Below are positions 386-53,834 of a stretch of DNA of 64,000 bases, piece by piece (the stretch's first letter is position 1; each line of letters opens with the position of its first letter). A model generated the notes under the pieces. It was given only the letters and a program-made list of their open reading frames with translations, ran no database searches and was not told the DNA's origin. Position numbers and translations under genes: made by a program. Source of the stretch: Eledone cirrhosa (Eukaryota); the NCBI GenBank assembly GCA_964016885.1, contig OZ024741.1:53134001-53198000 (forward strand). Reading direction: 5' to 3'.

Positions 386-789
386 GACACCCCCGTCTGT
401 ATACATCATATAGCAAGAGCAGCGTGAAATAAAGTGTCTTGCAACGCATTACCTCCCGATTGCAATCCTCATGCTTCAACCGCTAAACCAAGCACCTTCC
501 ACATCCATATACGTATATATTTATGTATCCATGTGTCGTTGTGTACATGCTTGTGAATTGTTGCATTCAAACTAATGATATCAATAGTAACCAATATTAA
601 ATTAAGGAGTATGATATAAATACCCTCGAAAATTAATCATTAATTAAAGGATTAATGACAAATTTCTGCATGTTTCGATATGCTGATTTGATCAAAAGAA
701 TGTGTGCGAATGTCAGCAGATCGAAGAAACCTTGTCCAGTTTGTCACAAATCTTAATATATATATCTATATATATTAAGTTAGCATATA

Positions 790-1499
790 AAGAGTACGAA
801 AATAGACCTAGAAGAAATAGATCCCGTCGCATTTGTTGGTATAACCCACCATATAATATGGAGGTGGTCACACCATTAGCTAAGATCTTTCTTTCCCTTA
901 TTAAGAAGCATTTTCACCCTACACATAAATATAGTAAATTTTTTAATAGAAATACTATTAAAATTTCTTACTCTACGACTCCTAACCTTCCACATAACAT
1001 CACAGCTTCAAATTTAGCTAAACTACCTAGCCGTAGGAACACGTGCATCCCTGTAGTTAGTACTAACTGTAATTGTAGGAATCGGGTTGATTGCCACCTA
1101 TCCGGGAAATGCCTCTCTAGTAACAAATGTAAGGTTGTAACACCCACGTTCCGTAGGGCCTACATAGGGTTAACCGCCAATAGATTCTAGCAGCGTCTTT
1201 ACACGTATACCCATTCTTTTCGTTACCCTCTAAGAAGGCATATGACGTCACTTTCAGCTTATATCTGGAGTCTAAAAGACAACCACACCCAAAATAAGTT
1301 ACACTGGGAGATCCTAGCTAATGCTAGATCGTATAACGGAAATAAAAGACCATGTGACCTCTGCGCCGCTGAGGCCCTGGAAATACTCTACGCCACAGAC
1401 CACATCTTAAACAAAAGATCTGAGGCAATTTCGGCTTGTAAACATAAATTGCACAAAATTTTCCTGTATTACAGCCCCACGTTATACCCTAACGAATAG
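790..1499 (+). pseudogene. Degenerate Penelope-like element (Neptune-type), RT-thumb/linker plus GIY-YIG endonuclease remnant
   Basis: WYNPPY..., KISYS..PN, CNCRNRVDCHLSGKC, AYIGLT..RF, TSLSAYIWSLKD, CDLC..EALEI, LNKRSE...CKH motifs; interrupted by a stop codon. Confidence 0.8.
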
Positions 1500-2059: not shown

Positions 2060-2941
<882 letters not shown>

Positions 2942-2944
<3 letters not shown>

Positions 2945-3457
2945 AATTGGTGCTCTGAAATAGAGATATATATATATGACTGCATATATAGTGTATTTTG
3001 CAATACACTGTAAGCGTAATTAAAAGCATTTCGAAGACCTTACGCTATTGTTTTAGAGTAGTGACAGTCTCACTTACTTTAAATTTTCAGCAAACAGCGG
3101 AGATAAAGCTGACAGAGCTCTGTTTCGTACTTTTTGGTACTTATCAAAGCTAACTACTGCACCTGTTTGCTGAAATCATGAATGTTTGATTCTTATAGAA
3201 TTCTAGTAATAATCAGGACCTGATTATACAGAGCGGTTGCCGGTCAAGCAGAAATTGAAAATTAGAATTGGTGCTCTGAAATAGCGATATATATATGAAT
3301 GTATATATAGTGTATTTTGCAATACACTGTATGCTTAATTAAAAGCATTTCGAAGACCTTACGCTATTTTAGAGTAATGATAGTCTTACTTACTTAACAT
3401 TTTCAGCAAACAGGGGAGATAAAGCTGACAGAACTCTGTTTCGTACTTTTTGGTACT
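2942..3457 (-). mobile_element. Retrozyme-like repeat, subfamily B (~321-bp unit, ~1.6 tandem copies)
   Basis: 'agaattggtgctctgaaatag' repeats at ~2943 and ~3264; shares 'gagcggttgccggtc...gctctgaaatagcgatata' with the 311-bp array; degenerate HHR at 3107-3151. Confidence 0.7.
3107..3151 (-). ncRNA. Degenerate type I hammerhead motif
   Basis: Reverse complement: agct-TTGATAA-gtac caaaaa gtac-GAAA-cagagctctg-TC-agct; the core differs from CUGAUGA at two positions. Confidence 0.6.
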
Positions 3458-3525
3458 GTGATTCACCTTGATTTTATGAAGGGGCACGGAAGGGAACCGC
3501 ATTTAAATAAGTTAATCAAGGTGAA

Positions 3526-3614
<89 letters not shown>

Positions 3615-3735: not shown

Positions 3736-4814
3736 TGTGTGTGTATATATATATGGAAAAGAATGAACGAAATTTCATTTCTCACTCTTAGTACGGCTGA
3801 TACGTAAATATAAGTATTTATACGTACATACATATATGTGTACAGACGTACATATATATATATGATTCACCTTGGTTTTCTGAAGGAGTACGGAAGGGAA
3901 CCGCATTTAGATCAGTTACAATATATCAATATATTGTGGAGAAGATACATATTTATTTTGTAAAAGAATCACTTCTACTGGAATAGAACTGTTTGATTCG
4001 TTTCAAATGATCAGGATTTCAATCGGTCGTATATCCATACCGTAAATGGAAGGTGTGAGTTTGAATTTCACGTGTAGCACTGTCCTCTTTTTCAGTCTCC
4101 AGGGCTTTACATATTCTTCTTGTTTTGGCTATTTTCTTAATTAGAAGCACCTGTGTTCAGCCATTTATGTACTTTAAATATGTCTTAACTTGGGGGCGGG
4201 GGGGTCGAAACGTACAGTTCTTGAATATAATTTCTTGAATATGATTTCTCAGATATATTTTATTGTAATAGTCCTCTACATCAAAATATTTACATAGTAC
4301 ACAATTAAACATGAACATAATAGCTCCCCCTATCCTAATCCCTACTCAACACTCACCATAATATGTGAGCAATTATGCAATTTTGTCTTTTCTTTTCGAG
4401 GGAAATTAGACATGCTAGTTGAAGTCGCTCTAAGGTTCAACACTGTGCGATGACAGAATGATGAAACTAGCGGAGTTAATGAGGATTTCTGTTGATAGAA
4501 ATCTATGTATGTAACTCTATTTTTCTCCTTCTTGTCCACGCATCATTTGTGTTGTAACAAGACATAACCTACATACCCACATATATATAACGACTGTCTT
4601 CTTCAAACGAGTGGTTGGTGAGGGACAGTAGAAAATAGAGACGTCAGTCAAAGAGTTGTTTAAGCGGAAATATGGATGGCGTCGGTAGTCAAGTTTAGGC
4701 GTTTGATTTATATTTGACTTGCGTTAAAGGTTAGCTTCGATTTTCTGAGTGTGTGTATTTTGCGTGTTACGGTAGACAACGGTTTTATTTTCATATGAAT
4801 AAACACACACACAC

Positions 4815-10905: not shown

Positions 10906-10907
<2 letters not shown>

Positions 10908-12931
10908 GACCTATCACATGTCTGCCCGTAATGTGGAAACTGTTGACGAGCATTGTGTCTGAGGAAATCTACCATCACCTCCACACAAACAACTTGTTAC
11001 CGGACGAACAGAAAGGATGCCGAAAGAAGTCACGTGGTACAAAGGACCAGTTGCTTATTGATAAGATGGTAATGGGGAATTGCAGGAGGAGACACACTGA
11101 TCTCGCCATGGGATGGATAGACTACAGAAAGGCATTTGACATGGTGCCTCATTCCTGGATCACCAAAAGCCTGGAGGTCTTCAGGGTGGCAGATAACATC
11201 AGACAGTTGCTGGGCAGGAGTATGGGGTCCTGGGAGACAGAGTTGACATCAACTGGAGTATCCTTGGGAAGCGTGAAGATCAAGAGAGGTATCTTCCAGG
11301 GAGATAGCCTGTCCCCTCTGTTGTTTGTCCTTGCCCTGATGCCCTTGACCATTATGCTGCGAAAAGTGAGAGCAGGATACAAGTTGGGAAGGGGAGAGCT
11401 TACCACCAATCACCTCCTCTTCATGGACGATCTTAAGCTCTTCGGGAAAAGTGAGAAGGAGTTGGATGGGCTTGTTGACACTGTCCGTATTTTCAGCAGT
11501 GATATATGTATGCAGTTTGGTATTGGTAAATGTGGAGTCATTGTGATGAAGAGGGGTAGGTTGAGCAGAAGTAACGGGATCCAGCTACCAACAGGTGAGA
11601 TGATAAAGGAAATTGACTCTGAGGAAGGATACAAGTATTTGGGCGTTCTGGAGGCTGATGGCATAAAGAACAAAAAAATGAAGGAATTGTTAAGAACTGA
11701 ATACATTCGAAGAGTAAGGAGCGTATTGAAGTCACATCTGAACAGCAGAAATGCCATAAGCGCAGTAAATTCCCGAGCTGTGTCTATTATTAGGTACAGT
11801 GCGGGAATTCTGAGATGGAATGTTGCTGAACAAAAAGAAATGGATAGGAAGACTAGGAAGCTATTGACTATCTACAACATGTTCCACAAGAGGAGTGATG
11901 TCGATAGACTCTACCTAAGGAGATCTGAGGGTGGAAGAGGTCTTATCAGCATAGAGGACTGTGTTCAGATGGAGAAAAACAACCTATACAAATACGTGAC
12001 CTATAGTAAGGAGCCAATGCTCAGAACTGTACTGAAGGAGGGGACAGTAGGCCAGGGGATGTCCAAGGAGGAAATAACATCAAGGAGGAAGAGCAGCCTT
12101 AAGGGAAAATCCCTTCATAGTACCTTCTTTGAGAAAACTGAATTTAGAGATCCACAGACATGGAACTGGTTGAGAAGAGGAGACCTCAAAAAGGCTACAG
12201 AAGGAATGCTAATGGATGCGCAGGAGCAGGCCCTCAAAACGAAGTGGTTGAAGTACCATATCTACAAGGAGGAGGCTAGCCCACTGTGCAGGATCTGTGG
12301 AGAGAGAGAGGAGACTGTGGCTCACATTGTGTCCGAGTGTAAACACCTAGCCCAGACCCACTATAAGGGCTGGAGACACGATGTGATGGGCAGGGTGATC
12401 CACTGGCACCTGTACAAAGTAAACAATCTACCACATTCTGAGAAATGGTATGAGCATAGGCCAGAGGCGGTGATGGAGAACAGTCAGGTGAAGGTGCTGT
12501 GGGATTTTAGGATACAGACGGACAAAAAACTGGAACACAATAGACCTGACCTGGTGGTTGTGGACAAAGAAAAAAGATCGTGCCTGATTGTGGATGTGGC
12601 CTGCCCGTTCGACACGAGAGTGCAAGAGAAGGAGAGGGAGAAAATTAACCGATACCAGGACCTAAAGTGGGAGGTGAAAAGGATCTGGAACTGCCATGAA
12701 GTCAAAGTGATCCCGATTGTCATAGGCGCACTGGGGACTATCTCCAAAGGTTTCCAGGGATGGTTAAAGAAAATCGGCCCCTTCACGCTTTTTGGAACGC
12801 TTCAAAAGGCATGCTTGCTTGGAACAGCAAGAACCCTCCGATACGTCCTGAATATCTGAGGCTGCAGGTAGTGGCTTGATATTCAATCCAACGGACTTTC
12901 CAGTTAACCAACATCAATGACTGAGATTCAA
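10906..12931 (+). mobile_element. R4/Dong-type RLE non-LTR retrotransposon, copy 1 (5'-truncated)
   Basis: Starts directly after (AAT)n; ends 'gagattcaagg' plus (AAT)n; near-identical to copies 2 and 3. Confidence 0.9.
10931..12859 (+). CDS. Reverse transcriptase + CCHC zinc knuckle + restriction-like endonuclease (uninterrupted 642 aa, N-truncated)
   Basis: [35 protein letters not shown]; [18 protein letters not shown]; RPDLVVVD...VDVACP...EKINRYQDL. Confidence 0.9.
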
Positions 12932-12967
12932 GGAATAACAATAACAATAATAATAATAATAATAATA

Positions 12968-15240
12968 ATCGGTGAGCAGGCACACCAACAAACTGATTTG
13001 AGTATCACAGGTGAAATTCTTAAGCGGCAGGCCAAAAAACTAACCAACTGGAAATCACCAGGCCCAGATGGTGTGCAGGGGTATTGGATTAAAAATATAA
13101 CATCCCTCCACCCGAAACTGACAACCATGTCTGCTTGATGTCAGGTGAGGTACCAGAGTGGTTGACAAAAGGTACCACAGTTCTGATAATGAAAGACCGA
13201 ATCAAGGGTAATGATGTTACCAACTATAGACCTATCACATGTCTGTCCGTAATGTGGAAACTGTTGACGAGCATTGTGTCTGAGGAAATCTACCATCACC
13301 TCCACACAAACAACTTGTTACCGGACGAACAGAAAGGATGCCGAAAGAAGTCACGTGGTAGAAAGGACCAGTTACTTATTGATAAGATGGTAATGGGGAA
13401 TTGCAGGAAGAGACACACGGATCTTGCCATGGGATGGATAGACTACAGAAAGGCATTTGACATGGTGCCTTATTCTTGGATCACCAAAAGCCTGGAGATC
13501 TTCAAGGTGGCAGATAACATCAGACAGTTGTTGGGCAGGAGTATGAGGTCCTGGGAAACAGAGTTGACATCAACTGGAGAATCCTTGGGAAGCGTGAAGA
13601 TCAAGAGAGGTATCTTCCAGGGAGATAGCCTGTCCCCTCTGTTGTTTGTCCTTGCCCTGATGCCCCTGACCAGTGTACTGCGAAAAGTGAGAGCAGGATA
13701 CGGGCTGGGAAAAGGAGGGCTTACCATCAATCACCTCCTCTTCATGGACGATCTTAAGCTCTTTGGGAAGAGTGAGAAGGAGTTGGATGTGCTTGTTGAC
13801 ACTGTCCGTATTTTCAGCAGTGATATATGTATGCAGTTTGGTATTAGTAAGTGTGGAGTCATTGTGATGAGGAGGGGTAGGTTGAGCAGAAGTAACGGAA
13901 TCCAGATACCAACAGGTGAGATGATAAAGGAAATTGACTCTGAGGAAGGATACAAGTATTTGGGCGTTCTGGAGGCTGATGGCATAAAGAACAAAAAAAT
14001 GAAGGAATTGTTAAGAACTGAATACATTCGGAGAGTAAGGAGCGTATTGAAGTCACATCTGAACAGCAGAAATGCCATAAGCGCAGTAAATTCCCGAGCT
14101 GTGTCTATTATTACGCACAGTGCGGGAATTCTGAGATGGAATGTTGCTGAACAAAAAGAAATGGATAGGAAGACTAGGAAGCTATTGACTATCTACAACA
14201 TGTTCCACAAGAGGAGTGATGTCGATATACTCTACCTAAGGAGATCTGATGGTGGAAGAGGTCTTATCAGCATAGAGGACTGTATTCAGATGAAGAAAAA
14301 CAACCTACACAAATACGTGACTGATAGTAAGGAGCCAATGCTCAGAACTGTACTGAAGGCCAGGGGATGTCCAAGGAGGAAATAACATCAAGGAGGAAGA
14401 GCAGCTTTAAGGGAAAATCCCTTCATAGTACCTTCTTTGAGAAAACTGAATTTAGAGATCCACAGACATGGAACTGGTTGAGAAGGGGAGACCTCAAAAA
14501 GGCTACAGAAGGAATGTTAATGGCTGCGCAGGAGCAGTCCCTCAAAACGAAGTGGTTGAAACACCATATTTACAAGGAGGAGGCTAGCCCACTGTGAAGG
14601 ATCTGTGGAGAGAGAGAGGAGACTGTGGCTCACATTGCATCCGAGTGTAAGCACCTAGCCCAGACCCACTATAAGGGCTGGAGACATGATGTGATGGGCA
14701 GGGTGATCCACTGGCACCTGTGCAAAGTAAAAAGTTTACCACATTCTGAGAAATGGTATGAGAATAAGCCAGAGGCGGTGATGGAGAACGATCAGGTGAA
14801 GGTGCTGTGGGATGTTAGGATACAGACGGACAAGAAACTGGAACACAATAGACCTGACCTGGTGGTTGTGGACAAAGAAAAAAGATCGTGTCTGATGGTG
14901 GATGTGGCCTGCCCATTCGACACGAGAGTACAAGAGAAGGAGAGGGAGAAAATTAACCGATACCAGGACTTAAAGTGGGAGATAAAAAGGATTTGGAACT
15001 GCCATGAAGTCAAAGTGATCCCGATTGTCATAGGCGCACTGGGGACTATCTCCAAAAGTTTCCAGGGATGGTTAAAGAAAATTGGCCCCTTCACGCTTTT
15101 TGGAACGCTTCAAAAGGCATGCTTGCTGGGAACAGCAAGAACCCTCCGATACGTCCTGAATATCTGAGGCTGCAGGTAGTGGCTTGATATTCATTCCAAC
15201 GGACTTTCCAGATAACTAACATCAATGACTGAGATTCAAG

Positions 15241-15241
<1 letters not shown>
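12968..15241 (+). mobile_element. R4/Dong-type element, copy 2 (5'-truncated, frameshifted)
   Basis: ORF pieces 12917-13138, 13135-14385, 14367-14597, 14625-15167; flanked by (AAT)n on both sides. Confidence 0.9.
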
Positions 15242-15295
<54 letters not shown>

Positions 15296-15296
15296 T

Positions 15297-16020
15297 TTTA
15301 GTACAAATGCTACGTAAAGCACCCGGCTTGAGCCCCCAAAAATTCGGACCCCAAATATATTGTTATAAGGCTCAAATATTCAAATATTCAACTTTGTATT
15401 GTACACTGTATATCCAAAAAAGAAAATGGCTATAAATGGAAGAAGAACCCCCCCCCTCCTCTCCTCTGTCTACACTATATAGAACAGCCAAACTCACCAA
15501 CACCAGAAACTAGATACACCACCCACCTCATCACCTGTGTACACTAAACACAACAGCCAGATAACGGCAATTTCACCACCACTGCTCACTACTGCCATCA
15601 TTACCACCGCTATCCCATCACCGCCGCCACCACTCTTCACTCCTTCACTGACCACCACTGCCTCGGTATCGACATCACCACCACCACTGTCTCAGTATCG
15701 CTACCGCCGCCAGTCACCCACTTCTCCCAGATGGCTGCTGCCACCACATTATAGAATTCCTACTACTAAAAAAGAGGAAGGCATCAAAATATATAGATAG
15801 ACTCAAAAGAAAAAAGAAAAAACAAACAACAAAACCAAAGCAGCACAGCAACAACAGCAAAAATCGAGAAAAACAAACAGAGAAAAACAAAAACAAAAAA
15901 AAACAAAAACCGTAAAGAAAATAAGAATGAAGAGAGAAGCAGGCGGACGGACAGAGAAGAGGGGGGAAAATCTAAAACTAAAAAAACAAAAACCAAGTCA
16001 GACATTCGAACACTACATTA
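15297..16020 (+). mobile_element. Probable 5' end/ORF1 start of another Tx1-like element
   Basis: Begins after (AAT)n; A-run plus ATGGC (15426) followed by ACC/AAC-rich low-complexity sequence, as at 7783 and 22630. Confidence 0.35.
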
Positions 16021-16049
16021 CAATGAAACTTATGCTTATTCATTTTTGG

Positions 16050-16145
16050 GGCCCTTTCTGCCTGTGTGTTTGTTTGTTTATGTGTGTTCGTATACAGCGT
16101 GGTGATAATTCCACACAAGGGCCAAGTGGAACGGCGAATCCACAG
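16050..16145 (+). ncRNA. HDV-like ribozyme candidate at the element 5' end
   Basis: P1 GGCCCTT (16050-56)/AAGGGCC (16117-23); P3 gtg/cac; J4/2 GGCGAAT (16133-39) followed by ccac pairing with upstream gtgg; L3/P1.1 non-canonical. Confidence 0.5.
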
Positions 16146-19100
16146 ATGGCTATGTAACCATACATTCGCCAATCCTCGATAAGAGTGTTTAAATATCGAA
16201 CATAAACAGTTCGAATAACTGTGAAATGGAGACTAGAACGTCATGTGACAGACTCTCACCCAACAGGTGACCCCTGGCTCAGCAGCAGGAACCTGACTGT
16301 CAACCAAATACTGCTGATGTTAGAGGAAGAAGAAGAAGGAAAGGGGCCAGAACCAACTGGACGAAAGAATTGAATAGAACTGTTATGCAATGTTACCTGA
16401 AAAGTAACCCCAAGGAGAGGGGCTACAGGAGACGGATGCATAACATCTGGAACGAGATTGGTGTATTTAAATTAGATGAACAAAAATTGGCCGGGTAGGC
16501 TCGGGTAATAAGAACTAATGGGTGGATAAGCGAGCTGGAACAGGAGGAACTGAGCAGAGAGAATGGCTTGGAGATGGCGGGTGTAGTATGCCAGACAAGC
16601 GAGCCAGTGGGAAATGAAGGTGAAGAGGTCCTGAGAACGGAGGAACCACCCGAAGCAGACAATGATCTGAATACTGAGATAAATAATACCTGGAACAGAG
16701 ATACGGCCACTGAGGAGATGAATGCTGACGGGCTAGGACAAGATTCGGTTGACATCCTAAATTTAGTGGTAGATGAATTGAACAATGATAGTGGGAGACC
16801 TATGAACCTAAGATTTGTAGACAGGAAAAAGTTAAAAGAAACAACAGCTAAGGTAAACAAAGTCATCCCATAACTTGAGGCGAGGAGCCTTCACCAGTGC
16901 AACAATATCCTCAAAGCAACAGCAAATACGGCGAGGAAACTACTTGGTATAAAAGCGAGAGGAAACAACAGACAAGAAAGAGCAGAGCCGTGGTGGAAGA
17001 AACGACTGAGTGGTCAAATCGGGGAAATGAGAAATGACATAGGAAAGCTTGAGTCACTACTGAATGGGACACTAAAAAACATAGGCACTAAAAATAGACT
17101 GAAAATAAAGTACAAAACTAGGAGGAAAAAGCTAAATGTTATCATAGAGGAACTGAAGCAACGTATTGTAGCAAAGAGTACAAAAATCAGGCGATACGAG
17201 AACAGAGTCAGTCAGTATAAACAGAACCGCATGTTCGACAACAACCAGAAGATGCTGTTTGGACAGCTTGAGGGGAAAGAAAGAGGCAACGACTTGATCC
17301 CTGGGGCGGAGCAAACTAAAACATTCTGGAGAGGAATATGGGAGCAGGATGTTAGACATAATGTCCAGGCAGGGTGGATTGAGACAGTACAGAGGGAGAT
17401 CGGTGAGCAGGCACACCAACAAACTGATTTGAGTATCACAGTTGAAACTCTTAAAGGGCAGGCCAAAAAACTAACCAACTGGAAATCACCAGGCCCAGAT
17501 GGTGTGCAGGGGTATTGGATTAAAAATTTAACATCCCTCCACCCGAAGCTGACGGCCATGTTCAATGACTGCTTGGTGTCGGGTGAGGTGCCAGAGTGGT
17601 TGACAAAAGGTACCACAGTTCTGATAATGAAAGACCGAATCAAGAGTAATGATGTTACCAACTATAGACCTATCAAATGTCTGTCCGTAATGTGGAAACT
17701 GTTGACGAGCATTGTGTCTGAGGAAATCTACCATCACCTCCACACAAACAACTTGTTACCGGACGAACAGAAAGGAAGTCACGTGGTACAAAGGACCAGT
17801 TACTTATTGATAAGATGGTAATGGGGAATTGCAGGAGGAGACACACTGATCTTGCCATGGGATGGATAGACTACAGAAAGGCATTTGACATTGTGCCTCA
17901 TTCTTGGATCACCAAAAGCCTGGAGATCTTCAGGGTGGCAGATAACATCAGACAGTTGCTGGGCAGGAGTATGGGGTCCTGGGAGACAGAGTTGACATCA
18001 ACTGGAGTATCCTTGGGAAGCGTGAAGATCAAGAGAGGTATCTTCCAGGGAGATAGCCTGTCCCCTCTGTTGTTTGTCCTTGCCCTGATGCCCTTGACCA
18101 TTATGCTGCGAAAAGTGAGAGCAGGATACAAGTTGGGAAAGGGAGAGCTTACCATCAATCACCTCCTCTTCATGGACGATCTTAAGCTCTTCGGGAAAAG
18201 TGAGAAGGAGTTGGATGTGCTTGTTGACACTGTCCGTATTTTCAGCAGTGATATATGTATGCAGTTTGGTATTAGTAAATCTGGAGTCATTGTGATGAGG
18301 AGGGTAGGTTGAGCAGAAGTAACGGGATCCAGATACCAACAGGTGAGATGATAAAGGAAATTGACTCTGAGGAAGGATACAAGTATTTGGGCGTTCTGGA
18401 GGCTGATGGCATAAAGAACAAAAAAATGAAGGAATTGTTAAGAACTGAATACATTCGGAGAGTAAGGAGCGTATTGAAGTCACATCTGAACAGCAGAAAT
18501 GCCATAAGCGCAGTAAATTCCCGAGCTGTGTCTATTATTAGGTACAGTGCGGGAATTCTGAGATGGAATGTTGCTGAACAAAAAGAAATGGATAGGAAGA
18601 CTAGGAAGCTATTGACTATCTACAACATGTTCCACAAGAGGAGTGATGTCGATAGACTCTACCTAAGGAGATCTGAGGGTGGAAGAGGTCTTATCAGCAT
18701 AGGGGACTGTGTTCAGATGGAGAAAAACAACCTATACAAATACGTGACCTATAGTAAGGAGCCAATGCTCAGAACTGTACTGAAGGAGGGGACAGTAGGC
18801 CAGGGGATGTCCAAGGAGGAAATAACATCAAGGAGGAAGAGCAGCTTTAAGGGAAAATCCCTTCATAGTACCTTCTTTGAGAAAACTGAATTTAGAGATC
18901 CACAGACATGGAACTGGTTGAGAAGGGGAGACCTCAAAAAGGCTACAGAAGGAATGCTAATGGCTGCGCAGGAGCAGGCCCTCAAAACGAAGTGGTTGAA
19001 GCACCATATTTACAAGGAGGAGGCTATCCCACTGTGCAGGATCTGTGGAGAGAGAGAGGAGACTGTGGCTCACATTGTGTCCGAGTGTAAACACCTAGCC

Positions 19101-19680
19101 CAGACCCACTATAAGGGCTGGAGACACGATGTGATGGGCAGGGTGATCCACTGGCACCTGTGCAAAGTAAACAATTTACCACATTCTGAGAAATGGTATG
19201 AGCATAGGCCAGATGCGGTGATGGAGAACAATCAGGTGAAGGTGCTGTGGGATTTTAGGATACAGACGGACAAAAAACTGGAACACAATAGACCTGACCT
19301 GGTGGTTGTGGACAAAGAAAAAAGATCGTGTCTGATTGTGGATGTGGCCTGCCCTTTCGCACGAGAGTGCAAGAGAAGGAGAGGGAGAAAATTAACCGAT
19401 ACCAGGACCTAAAGTGGGAGGTGAAAAGGATTTGGAACTGCCATGAAGTCAAAGTGATCCCGATTGTCATAGGCGCACTGGGGACTATCTCCAAAAGTTT
19501 CCATGGATGGTTAAAGAAAATCGGCCACTTCACGCTTTTTGGAACGCTTCAAAAGGCATGCTTGCTGGGAACAGCAAGAACCCTCCGATACGTCCTGAAT
19601 ATCTGAGGCTGCAGGTAGTGGCTTGATATTCATTCCAACGGACTTTCCAGTTAACCAACATCAATGACTGAGATTCAAGG
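16050..19680 (+). mobile_element. R4/Dong-type element, copy 3 (apparently full length, pseudogenised)
   Basis: N-terminal Myb-like segment NWTKELNRTVMQCY...GYRRRMHNIW...EQKLA; PWWKKRL; KSPGPDG; RT; CCHC; RLE; several stops and frameshifts; (AAT)n tail. Confidence 0.9.
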
Positions 19681-19689
19681 AATAACAAC

Positions 19690-19717
<28 letters not shown>

Positions 19718-19720
<3 letters not shown>

Positions 19721-21975
19721 CTTCCGAAGAATGATGAGACAAACAATCCCAAAAATTACAGACCGATAACTTGCTTGACCACAATGTATAACATTTTAAC
19801 ATCAGTCCTAACTGAATATACATATGACCACCTGATAACAAATGATCTATTTCCCAATGAGCAGATAGGGTGTAAAGGAGGCTCATATGGTTGTAAGGAT
19901 CAGCTTTTGGTTAACAAAATGATACTGGAAGATTGTCATAATAGACACAAAAATCTATCAATTGCTAGGATAGATTATAAAAAAACATTCGATAGTTTGC
20001 CATACAGTTGGATTGAAAAATGTTTATAGATTTTCAAAATATCTCCCCTTGTCAGGATGTTCCTGTCATTCAGTATGAAGACATGGAAAACGACACTCCT
20101 TTTGAATAGTGAAAAAAAAATCACTAGAAGCTGGAGAAGTTAATATTAATTGTGGAATTTTTCAAAATGACTCTTTATCACCACTTTTATTCTGCATCGC
20201 ACTTATACCATTAAGTAAAATGCTCAATAAAACAAAACATGGATATAAAGTCTATGACAAAACCATTAATCACTTGTACTACATGGATGACCTGAAACTA
20301 CTTGCAAAAAATGATGAACAATTGCAAGGGCTATTATCCACTATGGAGCAGTTCAGTGATGACATTAAAATGGAGTTTGGACTAGATAAATGCGCCAAAG
20401 CAACGTTCACCAGAGGAAAGCTGCTGAAAAGTTCAGACATTAATCTTGATCGGGAGAATGTGATAAGAGATCTTGATCAAGAGGAAACTTACAAATATCT
20501 AGGTGTTTGTGAAGGAGACGGAATCAAGCACTCGACAATGAGGGAAAGGATAAGGAAGGAATGTTACAGCAAAGTAAAGAGCAATCTTAAGAACGGAATT
20601 GAATGCAAGGAATAGGATCGATGCTATAAACACGCTTGCCATACCAGTAGTAACCTACAGTTACAATGTCATCAACTGGTCAAGCACAGAGATCCGTAGG
20701 CTCGATACAAAAATTAGAAAATTCTTAACCATGCACAGAATGCATCACCCTAAGGCAGATATAGATAGAATATATCTCCCTAGGAAAGAAGGAGGGCGTG
20801 GGTTAATCCAGTTAGATATTGCGTTGAAAACTGCAACAATTGGATTATCTACATATCTAAGGGAATCACATGATTGGATGATCAAACTCGTTTTGAAACA
20901 CGAAAGCATCAAAAGATCATACACCATTACAAAAGATGCACAAAGATACAGTAATGGACTACAAATTTCAGAAGTCCCATTTACTGCTGAAATGGAAAAC
21001 ACAGAAAAAGCAAAGCAGGTAAAAGTAACTGCAAAGAAAGAACTGCTACAGAAACTGGCTAAGAAATGGCAAGAAAAGCCTCTGTATGGAAAATACCCAG
21101 AAAGAGCTAACAATCCTGATGTTGACAAAACTTTAACCCATCAGTGGTTGGCATCCTCTGGACTGAAATCGGAGACTGAAGGACTGATTATATCAGCACA
21201 AGATCAGTGTCTGCCAACAAAAAATTATCAAGCCAACATAATAAAAAATGGATGCAACCCATTATGCCGTGTATGTAAAAAAACAACCAGAGACCATTGA
21301 TCATGTAATTTCAATGTGCAGTCCTATAGCTCCAACCGAATACCTAAACAGGCATGACAGAGCTGCACAATACATACATTGGATAATGTGTAAGCATTTT
21401 GACCTGCCCCATCAAAAGTATTGATGGGAGCATCAACCACCTCCCATACTTGAAAAAGATCACATCTCAATCTTGTGGAACTTTAGCATCCAAACAGACC
21501 GAAAAATAGATGCAAATAGACCTGATATAATAATGAAGGACTTTAAAAAGAGGGTCTTCCTGCTAATTGATATGTCCGTTCCAATAGACAAGAATGTATC
21601 TATAAAAACATTTGAAAAATTGAGCAAGTATAAGGACCGGGAGATAGAAATTGGAAAAATATGGAAATTGAGAACTAAAACAATACCAGTGGTTGTAGGC
21701 GCTCTAGGAATGATACCTAAGGGGTCTAATGATTACTTATCGCAAATCCCAGGAAACCCGCGTATAGGAGAAATGCAAAAGATAGTACTAATGGGAACTG
21801 CGCATATACTAAAGAAGATTCTGTCAATATAAGTACATCACAAGTCTAAACACCGAAAGATGCATGTGTTTGTATGTATGTTCTTTCTTGAACATAGCGG
21901 ACCTTGTTGTCTCTTGAGGTCACTGGTTGTGACTTGGTGATAACTCGTATGAACATAAAGCAAAATAAATGATGA
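19718..21975 (+). mobile_element. Second, divergent R4/Dong-type family (5'-truncated, decayed)
   Basis: NYRPITCL, IDYKKTFDS, GIFQNDSLSP, YYMDDLKL, CRVCKK, RPDII, EKLSKYKD; starts in the (AAT)n tail of copy 3. Confidence 0.85.
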
Positions 21976-22425: not shown

Positions 22426-25400
22426 GGTCTAATCGGAGGTCTTTTGCCCGCTCCCAGTAAGTGACTTTATTTGCCTGTTAAAATTATTTGTTGTTAAATA
22501 TTTCTTGTTGTGTAAGGGAGACAAGCCCTTAGACTTTGCCCTGTAAAGAGGAAAGTATAATATTTGGGCCTTTTGGCCCAAATACTTGAACATTACACTT
22601 TTAAAAAAAAATACTTATTAAAAAAAAACATGGCTGAGACCAGCAATATGTCTGCTGTCAAGTGACAACGGCGTAAATGTTGAGAGGAGGGTTAGTGAAA
22701 TTCATACAACAGACACCACCACAAACAACGTGAACAAAGAAAACAACACTGAGAACAGTAATTTTGAAAAAATTACCACACCAACTACAACAATAACAGC
22801 GTCAACCAAAATACAAACAACAACAACAAAATGACAACAAATGCAACAACGATATTAACACCACTAACAAGAAAATAAGCAACGACAACATCGACAGCAA
22901 CAGTGCAAATTGCACCGAAAACAACAACAACGGTGGCACCAAAAACACAACCAACTACAACAGTGATAACAGCAACAACATTTGTAGCAGTAGCAACAGC
23001 AACAGCACCAACAACAAGACCAGTAGCAGCAGTAGCGTCAGCAATAATGGTGCCGCTGAAAAAGATGCCACTGGTTTCGTAGGTGTGGCCCGAAATATAG
23101 AGACAGTGCTAGTCACGGAGGATGAGATGGAAGTCGCAAGAGCCATGGTGTCGAGAAACGACAATAGAGTTTCCGTGAAACCTTCACCCTATTTCTTCAA
23201 AGACCAGCAGCTGCGCACGGGTACTTACCGCACCGTAAGCAAAATATCACATCGGGTGGAGAAAACCACGGAGGCTCAAATCAAAAAGGCCTTGGAATGC
23301 GTCTGGGCGCGCAAAACCCATATCACCCGAGGCAAAAAGTACGCTACAGTAGACGTACTTTTCGTCAGCCCCCAAGAGGCGAAGTCTCACTCTTTTGAAA
23401 CCAGAAAAAGTGAGGAGATAGTCTTGGTGCCCTCCTGCTGCGGGCAGAAAATTGTGAGGGTGAAAGTGACTCAGGTCCTGCCGAACGTGCCCATACCTTG
23501 GCTGGCCGCGTCTGTACTGGCTGGAATCGAGGCGAAGACAACCATACTGCAAATACAGAGAATGGGAAGAGAGAACTGGTCAGGAATAAGCATGCAAATG
23601 TTAATGCAGACTGACCAGGAGTGCATCGAGGCCATCTCAGGCATCATAGACCTCGAAGAAGGGCTCCAACTTCCTATAAGCGTGGAAGGAAGGCGCCCAA
23701 AGTGCTATCTCTGTGAGCAGAGGGTCAGCTCAGGGTCTTCTGCCCGTAGAATACATACAAGAAGAGGGCTCCCCTCCTTCCGACGCCTGATCCGTAGCTA
23801 CCAAGAGCAGAAGACCCTTCCATGGTGAGTAGGAGGGCAACGTCCGTGGCACCCATACCAAGTCCACGGACAACTAAAGCAGCGGCATTAGTGGCGGCAA
23901 CACCAACAGTCGCAGTAGCTACACCGGCGGCAACATCGCCAGAGCAGGCTCCACTAAAACCACCACCAACAGTATAGCTCATCACCCTCCCAGACGCCAC
24001 GGAATCTGACATGGAGTATGAGGCGGGAGGGAAGTGGCAAACGGTCTACCCCAAAAAACAAAAACGGAAAAACCCTTAGCTTCACCATCCAAAAATGAAA
24101 GCAGACATAGATGGGTAAAGACTGCAAGACTTGCAGCAACACCACCACCATCACCATCACCACCACAATCATCACCACCACCGACAACAACACCACCACC
24201 AGCATCACAAAAAACACCAACATCGCAAACACAACAAAACACACACACCAAACAGCAACAATAAGAAAACAGCAACAAAATCACCCCTCCCTCACAAACG
24301 TACACAGCTATAAACATGGTAAATAAAGGACTCTTACAACATATAAAGCAGCACACAGACATCACAGAAAAAACTACTACACCCAACCAATACCAAGAAC
24401 TCTCCCGACAGACATAAACATCATTGAAATCTCAATAGAACATTACAAACTTTTAAAACAAAAGTTCCCCAACGTAGTTGGAGACTTCAGAGGATCGGTT
24501 ACCAAGAGGATATACACCGACATCATCTTGGAAAGACCCATGAACAGCCAAAGGGACGGTTCTACTGTCCCTTCACCACACGATCAAGGTAAGTGATCCT
24601 TTCTCACTTACCCCGTTTCTCATCCAGCATGGCTGTACTTAGAATATGCAGTATAAATGTACGTGGCCTGGGGTCATTATGGAAGGATTCTCACCTGCTC
24701 AACGACCTCAGGTCACTAAACATAGATGTGGTGGCCATCAGCGGGACCAGAATCTCAGAAGCACGAACCTTCGCACCGATCTTCGGCGGCTACGATGTAT
24801 ACGCATCTCCCAGCCGTCCAGGATCCGGGGAGGGGTCGCCGTGCTTTTTCGGAAGGCTTGGATCTCGCCATACGGGTCATCTTCCTGGACACAGAAGGTA
24901 AGTCGGTGGTGCTGGACGTGACCGGCATCGAAGGCAATGCTTTCAGGCTAGTAGCCGTCTACGCCCCAACAGGCGCAGGACGGCCAGATTTCTTCAGACG
25001 TCTAGAGACCTTTCTTGGAACGTCCCGCTCTTTAGTGATAGTGGGCGACTGGAACAGTATCTTAGATTCACGCTGGGATTATGTGGGGTTAGTAGACAGG
25101 GCAGATGGGTATTCTGTAGGGAAACAGATAAGGCTAGTGTAAGTTGTCCGTAATTTAAAGTAGTCGATTACACGGACTACAAATTTGTGATCTGTGAAGT
25201 TGACTTAGATAGACTCCATAGACAAGGGCCCGGCTACTGGAAGCTGAACGAGTCGTTCCCGGCGCGCAAAGCTTACAGAGACCGGAATAGCGAATTAGTG
25301 AAGCGTTCTTTGACGGGTGCGATCGTCAACAACAGGTGGTGGTTTGCCCTGAAAAGGGCTATTAGAGTAGAATCGACAAGATTTAGCAAAGGAGTAGTGA

Positions 25401-27053
25401 TAGAGGAACATAGAGTAGAGGGAGAGTTAGTTAGAAAGCTACAAGAGGCGTTTAGGACAGGCATCGCAACCGACGTGCTTGCGGCGAGATTGGCACTTGA
25501 CCAATTCTTCAACGCAAAGCATGAAGGCTGCGTTGTCAGAGCTAGAGCGCGTGCTCTAAGACACGAGGGGACGAAAGCAGTTCAATGGGACCGAGTGATG
25601 GAGGCGCGACGTGGCAACAAGTCCACAATTCCGTCTTTGTCTGATCAAAACGGGCGCATGTTGCTCGAACCCGAGCAGATGTGTGCGGCTTTTCAACAAC
25701 ATTTTGCTAAATCATTCGGGAGCGGCGGCGGGCCGGATCGGTGTATGGATTTCAGTGCATACCTTGACGGACTGCCGCGGCCTTCGACGACCGCAGCGCA
25801 GTGCTGCGAAAATCCCATATCAGCAGGTGAAATACGGGAAGCGATGTCTGACTTCAGGAGGGGTCAACCGCCAGATTTGGAGGTCTGCCCTACGAGCTTT
25901 ATGCGTATATGCCAGACTTGTTCGGCGACCAACTGGCAGCAGAACGGGAGCATTCCCAGTTTTGTGAGCCGGGGAGTGTGGTGCTGCTGAGAAAAGACCC
26001 GAACAAGGGGGACGTTATAGACAATTTCAGGCCCATAACTCTGCTAAACAGAGTTTAAGATTTTGGCCAAGGTGTTAGCAAAGAGATTGGTGCTTGTCGT
26101 CGCTGATCTCGTGGGAGAGGGGCATACATGCGCCATTCCGGACAGATCCACCCACGACAACCTCCATCCCATGCGATACATCATAGAGAGGTTGGTTAAG
26201 GAAACTGGCACGGGTGGGGCCCTGATCAACTTGGATCAATCTAAAGCATTTGATAGAGTCGACCATCGGTACCTGGTGGCGGTCCTCGAGGCGGCCGGCT
26301 TCGGGCTCGCTTTTAGGGGCTGGATCGCTGCGATGCACAGCGACATCTGCTCGATTGTGGGGGTGAATGGTCACCTGTCGCAGCCTTTCAGCATCATGCA
26401 CACGGTCCGACAGGGTTGCCCCCTCTCATCCCTCTTGTACGTACTGGTCCTCGAGCCGTTACTGCACACATTTGAGACGATGAGGGGGTCCCACGCGAAC
26501 TGGGATGCGGGAGATCCGTGTCATCTTACGCCGACGACGTCACCGTGGTGGTGTCGAGCACCAAAGACGTCCAGATGCACGGCACCACTCTCAAGGAATA
26601 CGAAGCGGTGACAGGAGCAAAGATAAATCAGGAAAAGTTGGTGGGCTTGCAACTCGGCACCTGGAGAGGCAAGTCCATGCCGTCATACAGCGTCGTTGGG
26701 CGCTGGACGGAAGTACCGGTTAAATTGCTCGGGGTCTGGTTCGGTCCGGACCACCAGATGGAGAAAAACTGGAGCGAGTTGACAAGGAGGGTGTCCTCTC
26801 TCACCCAGAAATGGGCCGAGAGGAGGCTGTCTCTGAAAGGTCGGGCGGAGGTGGTGAATGCGTACATAGCGTCCGTCCTCTGCAACCGCCTGACCGTCGT
26901 ACCTTTCCCCCGGCCAACTCTGACCAAAATGGAGCGCATCCTCCTCCGCTTTTTGGTCAGACGATCCATTTGCTGTCAACATCCATTGTGTGGAGGACTG
27001 GACATGCCGTGGCTGAGGATGAGCAAACATGCGCTGAGGCTGCGACATCTCAT
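22426..27053 (+). mobile_element. Tx1/L1-clade non-LTR retrotransposon (ORF1 plus APE-RT ORF2, frameshifted, 3'-truncated)
   Basis: ORF1 with RRPKCYLC; APE: SINVRGL, VYAP, VGDWN; PGYWKLN; RT: NFRPITLL, LDQSKAFDRVDH, VRQGCPLS, YADDV. Confidence 0.88.
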
Positions 27054-27187
27054 TTTTAACTAAACACCCTCACACACACTCACACACCCACGCATGTATA
27101 TATATATATTTATATATATATATATTTCGTTTCTGAATTTGTTTAGCAAGATTCTTTATCTGAAAACGTGTGTTGAAACCGATATTG

Positions 27188-43469: not shown

Positions 43470-43500
<31 letters not shown>

Positions 43501-44214
43501 TATATGTGAATATAGACATAGAATATTCGAAAATATTCTGTATGTTTATAATAAACATTTTGAAGACCTAATCGCTATAGAATAGAATACGTCACGTATT
43601 ACAATTAGATTCTCGATAAAAGCAAGGGAAGTAATCTACGCGTTTCATTCTTGTTAGAAATCTTCAGGACTACATATCCAGTGCTTTTATCGAGAATGAC
43701 ACAGCTAGAGACTTATAGAATACTTAGCTGTGTACAGGAACTGGTTTGAAAGAGCGGTTGCCGGTCCGGCAGAAATTAGAAATTGGAATCAATGCTCTGA
43801 AATAGCGATATATATGTGAATATAGACATAGAATATTCGAAAATATTCTGTATGTTTATAATAAACATTTTGAAGACCTAATCGCTATAGAATAGAATAC
43901 GTCACGTATTACAATTAGATTCTCGATAAAAGCAAGGGAAGTAATCTACGCGTTTCAGCTAAGTATTCTATAAGTCTCTAGCTGTGTCATTCTCGATAAA
44001 AGCACTGGATATGTAGTCCTGAAGATTTCTAACAAGAATGAAACGCGTAGATTACTTCCCTTGCTTTTATCGAGAATCTAATTGTAATACGTGACGTATT
44101 CTATTCTATAGCGATTAGGTCTTCAAAATGTTTATTATAAACATACAGAATATTTTCGAATATTCTATGTCTATATTCACATATATATCGCTATTTCAGA
44201 GCATTGATTCCAAT
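43501..44214. mobile_element. Retrozyme-like repeat (310-bp unit): ~1.5 units plus an inverted ~0.8 unit
   Basis: HHR on minus strand 43631-43673 and plus strand 44013-44055: gtagtc-CTGAAGA-tttct aaca agaat-GAAA-cgcg-TA-gattac. Confidence 0.85.
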
Positions 44215-44350
44215 TTATATATATATATATATATATATATAAAACGAAGGAGTTGTTGCAAGGCACCAGATGGCCCATAACGCACCAGAGTACTCAATAC
44301 GTCCAGAAATACGAAATGACTTGATCTCTGCCGTCGGGGTCATACTTTTT

Positions 44351-50118: not shown

Positions 50119-50202
<84 letters not shown>

Positions 50203-50210
<8 letters not shown>

Positions 50211-53200
50211 TAGAATATTCGAAAATATTCTGTATGTTTATAATAAACATTTTGAAGACCTAATCGCTATAGAATAGAATACGTCACGTATTACAATTAG
50301 ATTCTCGATAAAAGCAAGGGAAGTAAATCTACGCGTTTCATTCTCGTTAGAAATCGTCAGGACTACATATCCAGTGCTTTTATCGAGAATGACACAGCTA
50401 GAGACTTATAGAATACTTAGCTGTGTACAGGAACTGGTTTGAAAGAGCGGTTGCCGGTCCGGCAGAAATTAGAAATTGGAATAAATGCTCTGAAATAGCG
50501 ATATATATGTGAATATAGACATAGAATATTCGAAAATATTCTGTATGTTTATAATAAACATTTTGAAGACCTAATCGCTATAGAATAGAATACGTCACGT
50601 ATTACAATTAGATTCTCGATAAAAGCAAGGGAAGTAAATCTACGCGTTTCATTCTCGTTAGAAATCGTCAGGACTACATATCCAGTGCTTTTATCGAGAA
50701 TGACACAGCTAGAGACTTATAGAATACTTAGCTGTGTACAGGAAATGGTTTGAAAGAGCGGTTGCCGGTCCGGCAGAAATTAGAAATTGGAATAAATGCT
50801 CTGAAATAGCGATATATATGTGAATATAGACATAGAATATTCGAAAATATTCTGTATGTTTATAATAAACATTTTGAAGACCTAATCGCTATAGAATAGA
50901 ATACGTCACGTATTACAATTAGATTCTCGATAAAAGCAAGGGAAGTAAATCTACGCGTTTCATTCTCGTTAGAAATCGTCAGGACTACATATCCAGTGCT
51001 TTTATCGAGAATGACACAGCTAGAGACTTATAGAATACTTAGCTGTGTACAGGAACTGGTTTGAAAGAGCGGTTGCCGGTCCGGCAGAAATTAGAAATTG
51101 GAATAAATGCTCTGAAATAGCGATATATATGTGAATATAGACATAGAATATTCGAAAATATTCTGTATGTTTATAATAAACATTTTGAAGACCTAATCGC
51201 TATAGAATAGAATACGTCACGTATTACAATTAGATTCTCGATAAAAGCAAGGGAAGTAAATCTACGCGTTTCATTCTCGTTAGAAATCGTCAGGACTACA
51301 TATCCAGTGCTTTTATCGAGAATGACACAGCTAGAGACTTATAGAATACTTAGCTGTGTACAGGAACTGGTTTGAAAGAGCGGTTGCCGGTCCGGCAGAA
51401 ATTAGAAATTGGAATAAATGCTCTGAAATAGCGATATATATGTGAATATAGACATAGAATATTCGAAAATATTCTGTATGTTTATAATAAACATTTTGAA
51501 GACCTAATCGCTATAGAATAGAATACGTCACGTATTACAATTAGATTCTCGATAAAAGCAAGGGAAGTAAATCTACGCGTTTCATTCTCGTTAGAAATCG
51601 TCAGGACTACATATCCAGTGCTTTTATCGAGAATGACACAGCTAGAGACTTATAGAATACTTAGCTGTGTACAGGAACTGGTTTGAAAGAGCGGTTGCCG
51701 GTCCGGCAGAAATTAGATATTGGAATAAATGCTCTGAAATAGCGATATATATGTGAATATAGACATAGAATATTCGAAAATATTCTGTATGTTTATAATA
51801 AACATTTTGAAGACCTAATCGCTATAGAATAGAATACGTCACGTATTACAATTAGATTCTCGATAAAAGCAAGGGAAGTAAATCTACGCGTTTCATTCTC
51901 GTTAGAAATCGTCAGGACTACATATCCAGTGCTTTTATCGAGAATGACACAGCTAGAGACTTATAGAATACTTAGCTGTGTACAGGAACTGGTTTGAAAG
52001 AGCGGTTGCCGGTCCGGCAGAAATTAGAAATTGGAATAAATGCTCTGAAATAGCGATATATATGTGAATATAGACATAGAATATTCGAAAATATTCTGTA
52101 TGTTTATAATAAACATTTTGAAGACCTAATCGCTATAGAATAGAATACGTCACGTATTACAATTAGATTCTCGATAAAAGCAAGGGAAGTAAATCTACGC
52201 GTTTCATTCTCGTTAGAAATCGTCAGGACTACATATCCAGTGCTTTTATCGAGAATGACACAGCTAGAGACTTATAGAATACTTAGCTGTGTACAGGAAC
52301 TGGTTTGAAAGAGCGGTTGCCGGTCCGGCAGAAATTAGATATTGGAATAAATGCTCTGAAATAGCGATATATATGTGATAGACATAGAATATTTTTTTTA
52401 TTGCTTTTATCGAGAATCTAATTGTAATACGTGACGTATTCTATTCTATAGCGATTAGGTCTTCAAAATGTTTATTATAAACATACAGAATATTTTCGAA
52501 TATTCTATGTCTATATTCACATATATATCGCTATTTCAGAGCATTTATTCCAATTTCTAATTTCTGCCGGACCGGCAACCGCTCTTTCAAACCAGTTCCT
52601 GTACACAGCTAAGTATTCTATAAGTCTCTAGCTGTGTCATTCTCGATAAAAGCACTGGATATGTAGTCCTGACGATTTCTAACGAGAATGAAACGCGTAG
52701 ATTTACTTCCCTTGCTTTTATCGAGAATCTAATTGTAATACGTGACGTATTCTATTCTATAGCGATTAGGTCTTCAAAATGTTTATTATAAACATACAGA
52801 ATATTTTCGAATATTCTATGTCTATATTCACATATATATCGCTATTTCAGAGCATTTATTCCAATTTCTAATTTCTGCCGGACCGGCAACCGCTCTTTCA
52901 AACCAGTTCCTGTACACAGCTAAGTATTCTATAAGTCTCTAGCTGTGTCATTCTCGATAAAAGCACTGGATATGTAGTCCTGACGATTTCTAACGAGAAT
53001 GAAACGCGTAGATTTACTTCCCTTGCTTTTATCGAGAATCTAATTGTAATACGTGACGTATTCTATTCTATAGCGATTAGGTCTTCAAAATGTTTATTAT
53101 AAACATACAGAATATTTTCGAATATTCTATGTCTATATTCACATATATATCGCTATTTCAGAGCATTTATTCCAATTTCTAATTTCTGCCGGACCGGCAA

Positions 53201-53797
53201 CCGCTCTTTCAAACCAGTTCCTGTACACAGCTAAGTATTCTATAAGTCTCTAGCTGTGTCATTCTCGATAAAAGCACTGGATATGTAGTCCTGACGATTT
53301 CTAACGAGAATGAAACGCGTAGATTTACTTCCCTTGCTTTTATCGAGAATCTAATTGTAATACGTGACGTATTCTATTCTATAGCGATTAGGTCTTCAAA
53401 ATGTTTATTATAAACATACAGAATATTTTCGAATATTCTATGTCTATATTCACATATATATCGCTATTTCAGAGCATTTATTCCAATTTCTAATTTCTGC
53501 CGGACCGGCAACCGCTCTTTCAAACCAGTTCCTGTACACAGCTAAGTATTCTATAAGTCTCTAGCTGTGTCATTCTCGATAAAAGCACTGGATATGTAGT
53601 CCTGACGATTTCTAACGAGAATGAAACGCGTAGATTTACTTCCCTTGCTTTTATCGAGAATCTAATTGTAATACGTGACGTATTCTATTCTATAGCGATT
53701 AGGTCTTCAAAATGTTTATTATAAACATACAGAATATTTTCGAATATTCTATGTCTATATTCACATATATATCGCTATTTCAGAGCATTTATTCCAA
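50203..53797. repeat. 311-bp tandem array with one HHR per unit: 7 units, then a junction at ~52391-52400, then ~4.5 inverted units (retrozyme-like)
   Basis: 'gacatagaat' at 50207, 50518, 50829...; units near-identical; flanked by (TA)n. Confidence 0.92.
52663..52706 (+). ncRNA. Minimal type I hammerhead ribozyme (representative of 11 array copies)
   Basis: gtagtc-CTGACGA-tttct aacg agaat-GAAA-cgcg-TA-gatttac; palindromic ACGCGT stem III. Confidence 0.8.

Positions 53798-53834
<37 letters not shown>

What the first reader, a model, noticed from the sequence alone, without database searches (positions are those of the whole stretch)
2942..3457. Divergent sister family keeps the same RNA architecture with different sequence (covariation visible in one window)
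Seen: the ~321-bp unit shares anchor blocks with the 311-bp unit (gagcggttgccggtc, gctctgaaatagcgatata, gaagacct). The hairpins at equivalent positions are replaced by different but still pairing sequences: agtgtatt..aatacact versus agaatatt..aatattct; atgctt..aagcat versus atgttt..aaacat; HHR-enclosing stem ttcagcaaacag/ctgtttgctgaa versus ttctcgataaaagca/tgcttttatcgagaa; stem III acagagctctgt versus acgcgt. The HHR is on the same strand and in the same position. Inference: selection acts on the whole RNA fold, not only the ribozyme, and the conserved blocks may be cis-signals for a helper RT or for transcription.
Basis: partly seen in the sequence, partly recalled or inferred. Interest (0 to 1): 0.78.

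Follow-up and report, generated by a model that had tools for sequence, protein, structure and literature searches.

The report
Ribozyme retroelement with conserved RNA fold
This is a decayed copy of a small protein-less jumping element that carries a predicted self-cutting RNA. Its many relatives in the genome keep much of the same predicted RNA fold through matched base swaps, including a swapped pair inside the ribozyme core, and its insertion ends suggest that it likely borrows the copying machinery of a Penelope-like transposon.

Summary
Window 2942-3457 is 1.6 units of a ~319-nt non-LTR retrozyme (family B) with a type I hammerhead on the minus strand. It belongs to a superfamily with 24,477 exact hits of one anchor.

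The B consensus does not restore CUGAUGA. It has the compensated core pair U3-A8 (39 of 39 units), also fixed in subfamily F (single origin rejected) and in distant clade Z (14 of 14).

Covariation is real: 14 of 17 doubly changed A pairs still pair in B (7.9 expected), and G·U steps lean to the ribozyme strand. But about a quarter of the pairs differ between A and B, and inserted copies decay evenly. Selection therefore likely acts on the mobile RNA, not on genomic copies.

One anchor is the Penelope-like 'tail': insertions sit in (TA)n, and 65 of 70 two-armed insertions carry the tail on one arm only. No homologous helper was found. Cleavage and expression are untested. This is a new member of a known kind, with a useful map of candidate RT-recruiting structure.

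The parts
2913..2941 (.). (TA)n microsatellite at the fixed 3' end of the insertion (target)
   Evidence: 118 of 135 tail-bearing ends abut (TA)3+
2942..3457 (-). family B retrozyme insertion, 1.6 units, one arm, 5'-truncated at 3457
2942..2977 (-). terminal PLE-type tail (~36 nt between the two end classes); carries one private change in the anchor
2990..3009 (-). hairpin H5 (second copy 3309-3328); two compensated pairs against A, one inside the B/C clade
3086..3174 (-). long stem enclosing the hammerhead (arms 3163-3174 and 3086-3097); strongest covariation
3089..3164 (-). type I hammerhead: U3 at 3147, A8 at 3142, stem II 3140-3127, palindromic stem III 3123-3112, predicted cut between 3111 and 3110
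   Evidence: sequence; descriptor hit; Rfam HH9 E 0.0033, below its gathering score
3209..3227 (-). hairpin H8, invariant in the B/C clade, only 3 of 8 pairs kept in A
3229..3245 (-). second anchor: 3' arm of helix P6 (3229-3234) and half of hairpin H7
3262..3296 (-). internal copy of the tail: (AU)n, 3' arm of helix P3, 5' arm of P6 (3273-3278)
3331..3348 (-). hairpin H4 (decayed copy 3012-3029); one compensated pair, U-A to C-G
43494..44219 (.). family A insertion, two inverted arms, tail on the right arm only
50190..53798 (.). family A insertion, 7.1 + 4.5 units of 311 bp in inverted arms, tail on the right arm only

Best explanation
The region is a decayed, 5'-truncated copy of a non-autonomous non-LTR retrozyme whose family carries a U3-A8 hammerhead core, and it was likely inserted by the reverse transcriptase/endonuclease of a Penelope-like element (PLE) acting in trans. 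Proposed cycle: (1, inferred) tandem copies are transcribed on the hammerhead strand. (2, predicted) The hammerhead cuts once per unit, and monomers are circularised as in other animal retrozymes. (3, inferred) The PLE protein binds a structured module around the tail (helix P3 enclosing hairpins H4 and H5, plus P6 and H7), nicks both strands of a (TA)n target, and starts copying inside the RNA at two sites ~36 nt apart, one per strand. (4, shown in DNA) This leaves arms with fixed 3' ends, variable 5' ends, and the tail on one arm only. (5, shown for 30 B copies) Inserted copies decay evenly, so (6, inferred) the compensatory changes were fixed in the few source RNAs that kept moving, which gives a ladder of subfamilies.
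For: Core: U3-A8 in 39 of 39 B units from 30 loci. Pattern counts: 1,492 U3-A8 hits within 3,833 hits (controls 5 and 9). The first 100 listed, counted by hand, are 60 C-G, 33 U-A, 3 U·G and 4 C·A. The B and F origins are separate (AU p 5.7e-5), and Z also has U3-A8 (14 of 14). Covariation: A to B, 14 of 17 double changes keep pairing (7.9 expected, p 0.002); B to A, 14 of 18 (8.5, p 0.009); B to C, 8 of 9 (1.2 expected if changes fell at random). RNAalifold on 32 real copies: 22 of 42 pairs with double changes. For 55 named pairs, 25 show double changes against 18.2 shuffled (0 of 500) and 3-13 when slid. G·U against A·C on the hammerhead strand is 7:1 for interior pairs and 11:3 for all pairs, with stepwise U-A, U·G, C-G paths. 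P6 covaries in Z, where 6 of 9 copies pair at all six positions. PLE signature: the tail is on one arm in 65 of 70 two-armed loci, and in 36 of 41 found without the tail in the query. The same holds in 8 of 8 two-armed loci of an autonomous PLE of this genome. It matches PMC8557442 (tail often at one end only) and PMC11167929 (two internal RT starts bound the tail). 5' ends do not pile up at the cut site (9 of 335, 8.4 expected).
Against: Cleavage, transcription and circles were not observed. Watson-Crick covariation and folding z-scores are as good on the opposite strand, and the G·U excess is only borderline (two-sided p about 0.06-0.07, my hand calculation). With letters redrawn, B to C gives p 0.07 and C to A p 0.16. 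'Further pair types' fell below the shuffles (54 against 59.6), and those shuffles ignore relatedness. The minimum-energy fold of B pairs the core with stem III instead of forming the active hammerhead. No homologous helper pLTR was found in 30 + 70 PLE loci. The first 20 nt after the cut hold 36 of 335 5' ends, about 21 expected. In the Xenopus preprint 8 of 9 tested retrozymes did not cleave, and PAc insertion in vitro did not need cleavage.
Confidence: 0.8

Rival explanations
1. The matched changes come from DNA-level or RT-level hairpin correction (template switching, or gene conversion between the arms of inverted repeats), not from selection on RNA structure.
For: Most covarying pairs are Watson-Crick and score the same on both strands. 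The element switches template often, as the inverted arms show. Copies show no constraint.
Against: Positions 3 and 8 are not arms of a hairpin, yet they switched together in separate lineages. G·U intermediates persist as subfamily states. The long-range helices P3 and P6 are kept, and P6 covaries.
Confidence: 0.08
2. The fold is selected only to make a stable, ligatable circle (compact and nuclease-resistant). The PLE protein reads the anchor sequence, not a shape.
For: A and B differ in register in three hairpins, so pairing as such may matter more than geometry. The anchors are nearly invariant between A and B. Known retrozyme circles are described as highly self-paired (PMC7229834, passages).
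Against: In clade Z the anchor sequence changes while P3, P6 and the ~37-nt spacing of the end points stay.
Confidence: 0.25
3. The hammerhead of B is a dead relic. The element moves as uncut multimeric transcripts, in effect a PLE-mobilised SINE-like repeat.
For: No pile-up of 5' ends at the cut site. Cleavage is dispensable for PAc in vitro. B arms are short (median 297 nt for the B/C clade).
Against: Core positions stay fixed across subfamilies while the 3-8 pair, stem I and stem II covary. U3-A8 is reported as active in vitro (PMC3088659, section 8).
Confidence: 0.1

Closest known systems
Non-LTR retrozymes of animals (Cervera and de la Pena 2020, PMC7229834; Li et al. preprint 10.64898/2026.07.22.740005)
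   Same: Tandem units of ~310-340 nt, low GC, one type I hammerhead per unit, no ORF, thousands of dispersed copies, strongly self-paired predicted circle, PLEs in the same genome.
   Different: U3-A8 core fixed in three lineages. PLE tail, (TA)n target and inverted arms shown directly ('tail' has 0 occurrences in both main texts). No homologous pLTR found here, whereas the preprint reports TE homology for 24 of 57 Xenopus families. Expression and cleavage untested here.
EN+ Penelope-like elements (Poseidon PAc, PMC11167929; Neptune/Naiad insertion anatomy, PMC8557442)
   Same: 5' truncation, inverted arm, 30-40 nt tail at one end, AT-rich or (TA)n target, end points well downstream of the hammerhead cut.
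   Different: No RT or endonuclease ORF; a canonical-sized hammerhead inside a long enclosing stem rather than a minimal one; the unit is the whole element.
U3-A8 hammerhead core variants (Perreault 2011, PMC3088659; Schistosoma Cercyon PLE, PMC4209133)
   Same: The same compensated core pair. The U10.1-U11.1 closure of stem II, seen in families A and E, is also described in PMC3088659.
   Different: Here the switch can be placed on a subfamily tree within one genome, with C3-G8 sisters on both sides.

Membership tests
non-LTR retrozyme | tandem unit of about 170-400 nt without ORF | tested here: met
   319-320 nt (B), 310-312 (A), 341 (Z); no ORF of 150 aa or more over the region
non-LTR retrozyme | type I hammerhead in each unit | tested here: met
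   descriptor hit; core in all aligned units; Rfam HH9 only at E 0.0033, 22.9 bits against a cut-off of 52, none at gathering
non-LTR retrozyme | dispersed multicopy family | tested here: met
   1,926 candidates for B, 40 scored; 24,477 anchor hits
non-LTR retrozyme | self-cleavage of the transcript | not testable with these tools
   needs an in vitro assay
non-LTR retrozyme | circular RNA in cells | not testable with these tools
   no raw RNA reads were available to lay
PLE-mobilised non-autonomous element | [quoted passage not shown] | tested here: met
   65 of 70 two-armed loci
PLE-mobilised non-autonomous element | 5' truncation, inverted arm, microsatellite target | tested here: met
PLE-mobilised non-autonomous element | sequence homology to the pLTR of an autonomous PLE | tested here: inconclusive
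   none in 30 loci of one family and 70 of 150 listed GIY-YIG loci; the genome gave 10,597 GIY-YIG candidates
autonomous PLE | RT plus GIY-YIG ORF | tested here: not met
active hammerhead core | Watson-Crick pair between positions 3 and 8, with the other core positions kept | tested here: met
   18 C-G, 13 U-A, 1 U·G, 0 unpaired in 32 copies; 37 of 39 B units read UUGAUAA exactly

The most novel reading that the evidence does not exclude
Retrozymes carry a structurally defined RNA module (P3 enclosing H4/H5, with P6/H7 around the tail) that recruits a non-homologous PLE protein in trans and assigns the two RT start sites one to each target strand. Three clades at 50-63% identity give its covariation model. 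This would be the first defined cis-element for PLE reverse transcription on a non-coding passenger RNA, a SINE-like partnership by shape rather than by shared 3' sequence.
Probability: 0.3. Interest if true: 0.75.

Novelty: new member of a known kind. Interest (0 to 1): 0.5.

Why it matters
Which enzyme moves animal retrozymes, and what it recognises, is open: PMC7229834 names PLEs only as strong candidates, and the 2026 preprint argues from co-occurrence and pLTR homology. This family shows the PLE footprint in its own insertions and narrows the candidate recognition element to a small covarying module that can be tested in the existing in vitro PLE assay. It also offers natural C3-G8 and U3-A8 sister ribozymes, and shows that scans demanding CUGANGA miss whole families (1,492 pattern hits here).

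Tried and rejected
Rfam at gathering scores found nothing in the window.

Sequencing runs: no RNA holder listed. Contigs of four runs laid on the B unit gave only short pieces for three of them, so they were not used as cross-species evidence.

Helper search: BLAST and nhmmer of the retrozyme against 30 loci of the window's PLE family and 70 GIY-YIG loci found only separate insertions. The pLTR of the window's PLE family is not unusually structured (z -0.4). One weak hit led to clade Z, which is another retrozyme clade, not a helper.

A first clustering split copies by presence of the tail and was replaced. Terminal-column artefacts in two consensuses (C, G) were removed before the tests. The first P6 count for Z used a faulty pattern and was redone.

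Rejected: B as a mutated, dead CUGAUGA copy (U3-A8 is family-wide); selection on genomic copies; linear cleaved monomers as the main template. Folding z-scores could not fix the strand. R-scape, CMfinder and LocARNA were not among the tools, and promoter signals were not tested. Three look-ups in earlier findings returned nothing.

Full report
Observation. The region holds 1.6 units with a period of 319, next to a (TA)n run at 2913-2941. Family A lies at 43494-44219 and 50190-53798 as inverted arms. The hammerhead is on the minus strand: U3 at 3147, A8 at 3142, a four-pair stem II, a 12-nt palindromic stem III, and a predicted cut between 3111 and 3110. Rfam gives only a sub-threshold HH9 match there (E 0.0033) and nothing at gathering scores.

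The superfamily. The window lies in a 3.0-Gb genome (G000). B gave 1,926 candidates, of which 40 were scored, the best at 94-96% identity. A copies are 99-100% identical and form long arrays. The tail anchor has 24,477 exact hits against 0 for the control. From 523 extracted units, 192 distinct ones fell into subfamilies that form a ladder F/E/G, C, D, B5, B beside clade A (89 of the 192 rows used, bootstrap not fully settled). Mean divergence from consensus is 0.4-1.2% in A, 2.8-6.1% in the B groups, 3.6% in D, 4.4% in C, 5.9-6.6% in G and E, and 8.1% in F (B1 is biased low by how it was found). B is thus older than A. A weak profile hit led to a third clade, Z (324 candidates), with a 341-nt unit at 49-54% identity to A, B and C.

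The core. All 39 full B units have U3 and A8, and 37 read UUGAUAA exactly (these were picked by similarity to the window copy). Patterns blind to the rest of the unit agree: 3,833 hits allowing either state and 1,492 for U3-A8. The first 100 listed, counted by hand, are 60 C-G, 33 U-A, 3 U·G and 4 C·A. Positions 3 and 8 form a tertiary Watson-Crick pair, and U3-A8 is a known natural covariation reported as active in vitro (PMC3088659, section 8 and passages read) and found in Schistosoma PLEs (PMC4209133, parts 1-2 of 4 read). With both columns dropped, the tree needs two changes, and one clade for B plus F is rejected (p-AU 5.7e-5). That group was named after I had seen the quick tree, and most F copies came from a pattern that demanded UUGAUAA (51 hits, control 0). 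In Z, 14 of 14 readable cores are U3-A8; Z was not in the tree, so the direction of change at the root is open.

Covariation. To avoid choosing helices that pair in both families, pairs were predicted from one consensus alone (probability at least 0.7) and read in the other on a sequence-only alignment. A to B: of 62 pairs, 25 were unchanged, 17 doubly changed (14 kept; 7.9 expected with letters redrawn, p 0.002) and 20 singly changed (6 kept). B to A: 29 unchanged, 18 doubly changed (14 kept, p 0.009) and 15 singly changed (2 kept; six of these are a one-column slip in P3 that one search aligns in register). B to C: 8 of 9 kept, 1.2 expected under random placement, but p 0.07 with letters redrawn; C to A gave p 0.16. 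On 32 real copies, RNAalifold predicts 42 pairs, 22 with double changes. For 55 named pairs, 25 show double changes against 18.2 in shuffles (0 of 500) and 3-13 after sliding, while the count of pair types fell below the shuffles (the shuffles ignore relatedness). The signal sits in the enclosing stem, stems I and II, and H4 and H5. H2, H8 and H9 of B are not kept pair for pair in A, so 'whole fold' overstates it. Yet A, B/C and Z predict the same order of helices. P6, nearly invariant between A and B, changes on both sides in Z, where 6 of 9 copies pair at all six positions.

Strand and level of selection. Watson-Crick covariation and folding z-scores are as strong on the opposite strand. G·U states outnumber A·C states on the hammerhead strand 7 to 1 among interior pairs and 11 to 3 overall (borderline by a hand binomial), and several pairs step from U-A through U·G to C-G along the ladder. 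In 30 B copies, rare changes occur at 4 of 360 core sites, 37 of 2,459 stem sites, 18 of 900 anchor sites and 82 of 5,837 other sites (p 0.82, 0.76, 0.18; low power for the core). Inserted copies therefore look neutral, and the constraint is inferred to act on the source RNAs that keep moving.

Insertion anatomy. Arms end at two places about 36 nt apart, before or after the tail anchor, and 118 of 135 tail-bearing ends abut (TA)n. In two-armed insertions one arm has the tail and the other lacks it in 65 of 70 loci, and in 36 of 41 loci found with tail-free queries. An autonomous PLE family of this genome (window 33145-34359, RVT_1 plus GIY-YIG; many open ORFs of about 900 aa) shows the same pattern in 8 of 8 two-armed loci. 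PLE tails of 30-40 bp, often at one end only, are described in PMC8557442 (passages read). PMC11167929 (parts 1-2 of 4 read) shows that the tail lies between two internal RT start sites and that the protein cuts and extends both strands; it saw no difference in start site between strands, and cleavage was not needed for insertion. The end points here lie about 135 and 170 nt after the cut, and 5' ends do not pile up at the cut (9 of 335 within 4 nt, 8.4 expected; 36 in the first 20 nt, about 21 expected). The template must thus be circular or an uncut multimer, and these data do not tell which.

Helper. No homologous pLTR was found in 30 loci of the window's PLE family or in 70 GIY-YIG loci from about six families; the sampling is small against 10,597 candidates. 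Two families are candidates by behaviour only. One is the window's recently active family. The other (1,714 hits of its end motif) has a U3-A8 hammerhead and, like the retrozyme, a tail that starts with (AU)n.

Comparison and novelty. The element meets the sequence-level criteria of non-LTR retrozymes (PMC7229834, passages read; preprint 10.64898/2026.07.22.740005, parts 1-3 of 5 read); cleavage and circles are untested. The class, the U3-A8 variant and the one-sided PLE tail are each known. In seven paper searches I found no report of a covariation-supported fold outside the ribozyme for an animal retrozyme, or of the PLE tail in one. 'Tail' has 0 occurrences in the main texts of the two retrozyme papers. 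Their supplements were not read and may bear on this, and the library lacks most subscription journals.

Verdict. A real feature and a new member of a known kind, with a testable map of a likely RT-recruiting module. Interest 0.5.

Noticed in passing
window 32270-34950: 5'-truncated autonomous-type PLE (RT + GIY-YIG, ORF 33145-34359) with an inverted arm, in (TA)n, 44-nt tail on one arm only. Its minimal hammerhead mostly reads CCGAAGA (U4C variant); the family has many open ORFs of about 900 aa.
   Followed up: partly
L313:495-625; L378-L402: Clade Z: 341-nt retrozyme, about 50% identical to A/B/C, U3-A8 core, 16-nt palindromic stem III, same helix order and tail spacing.
   Followed up: yes
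L308, L311, L332, L354 and others: PLE family whose pLTR hammerhead has both U3-A8 and a U·U closure of stem II, and whose tail starts with (AU)n; candidate helper without detectable homology.
   Followed up: partly
L020, L030, L127, L157, L355 flanks: Abundant short repeat with inverted arms in (TA)n and a minimal-hammerhead-like core resembling that of family A; possible shared origin of the ribozyme module.
   Followed up: no
L195:3732-4100, minus strand: Another hammerhead-bearing repeat (C3-G8, U·U-closed stem II) without the A/B anchors.
   Followed up: no
subfamilies: Pair 10.1-11.1 is U·U in A and E, A-U in C, D, G and some A, A·A in F, and G-C in B. Stem III grows from 2 bp (A, long arrays) to 4-6 bp (B); a link between dimer dependence and array length is untested.
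   Followed up: partly
window 3458-3526 and 3863-3918: Short repeat with inverted ends directly at the 5' end of the B insertion, with a second copy nearby.
   Followed up: no
window 687-1190: Fragment that resembles a PLE ORF end by eye (recalled resemblance; no Pfam hit).
   Followed up: partly
window 10907-21300 and 25154-27063: Several broken non-LTR retrotransposon ORFs (RVT_1 hit at 10907-12856).
   Followed up: no
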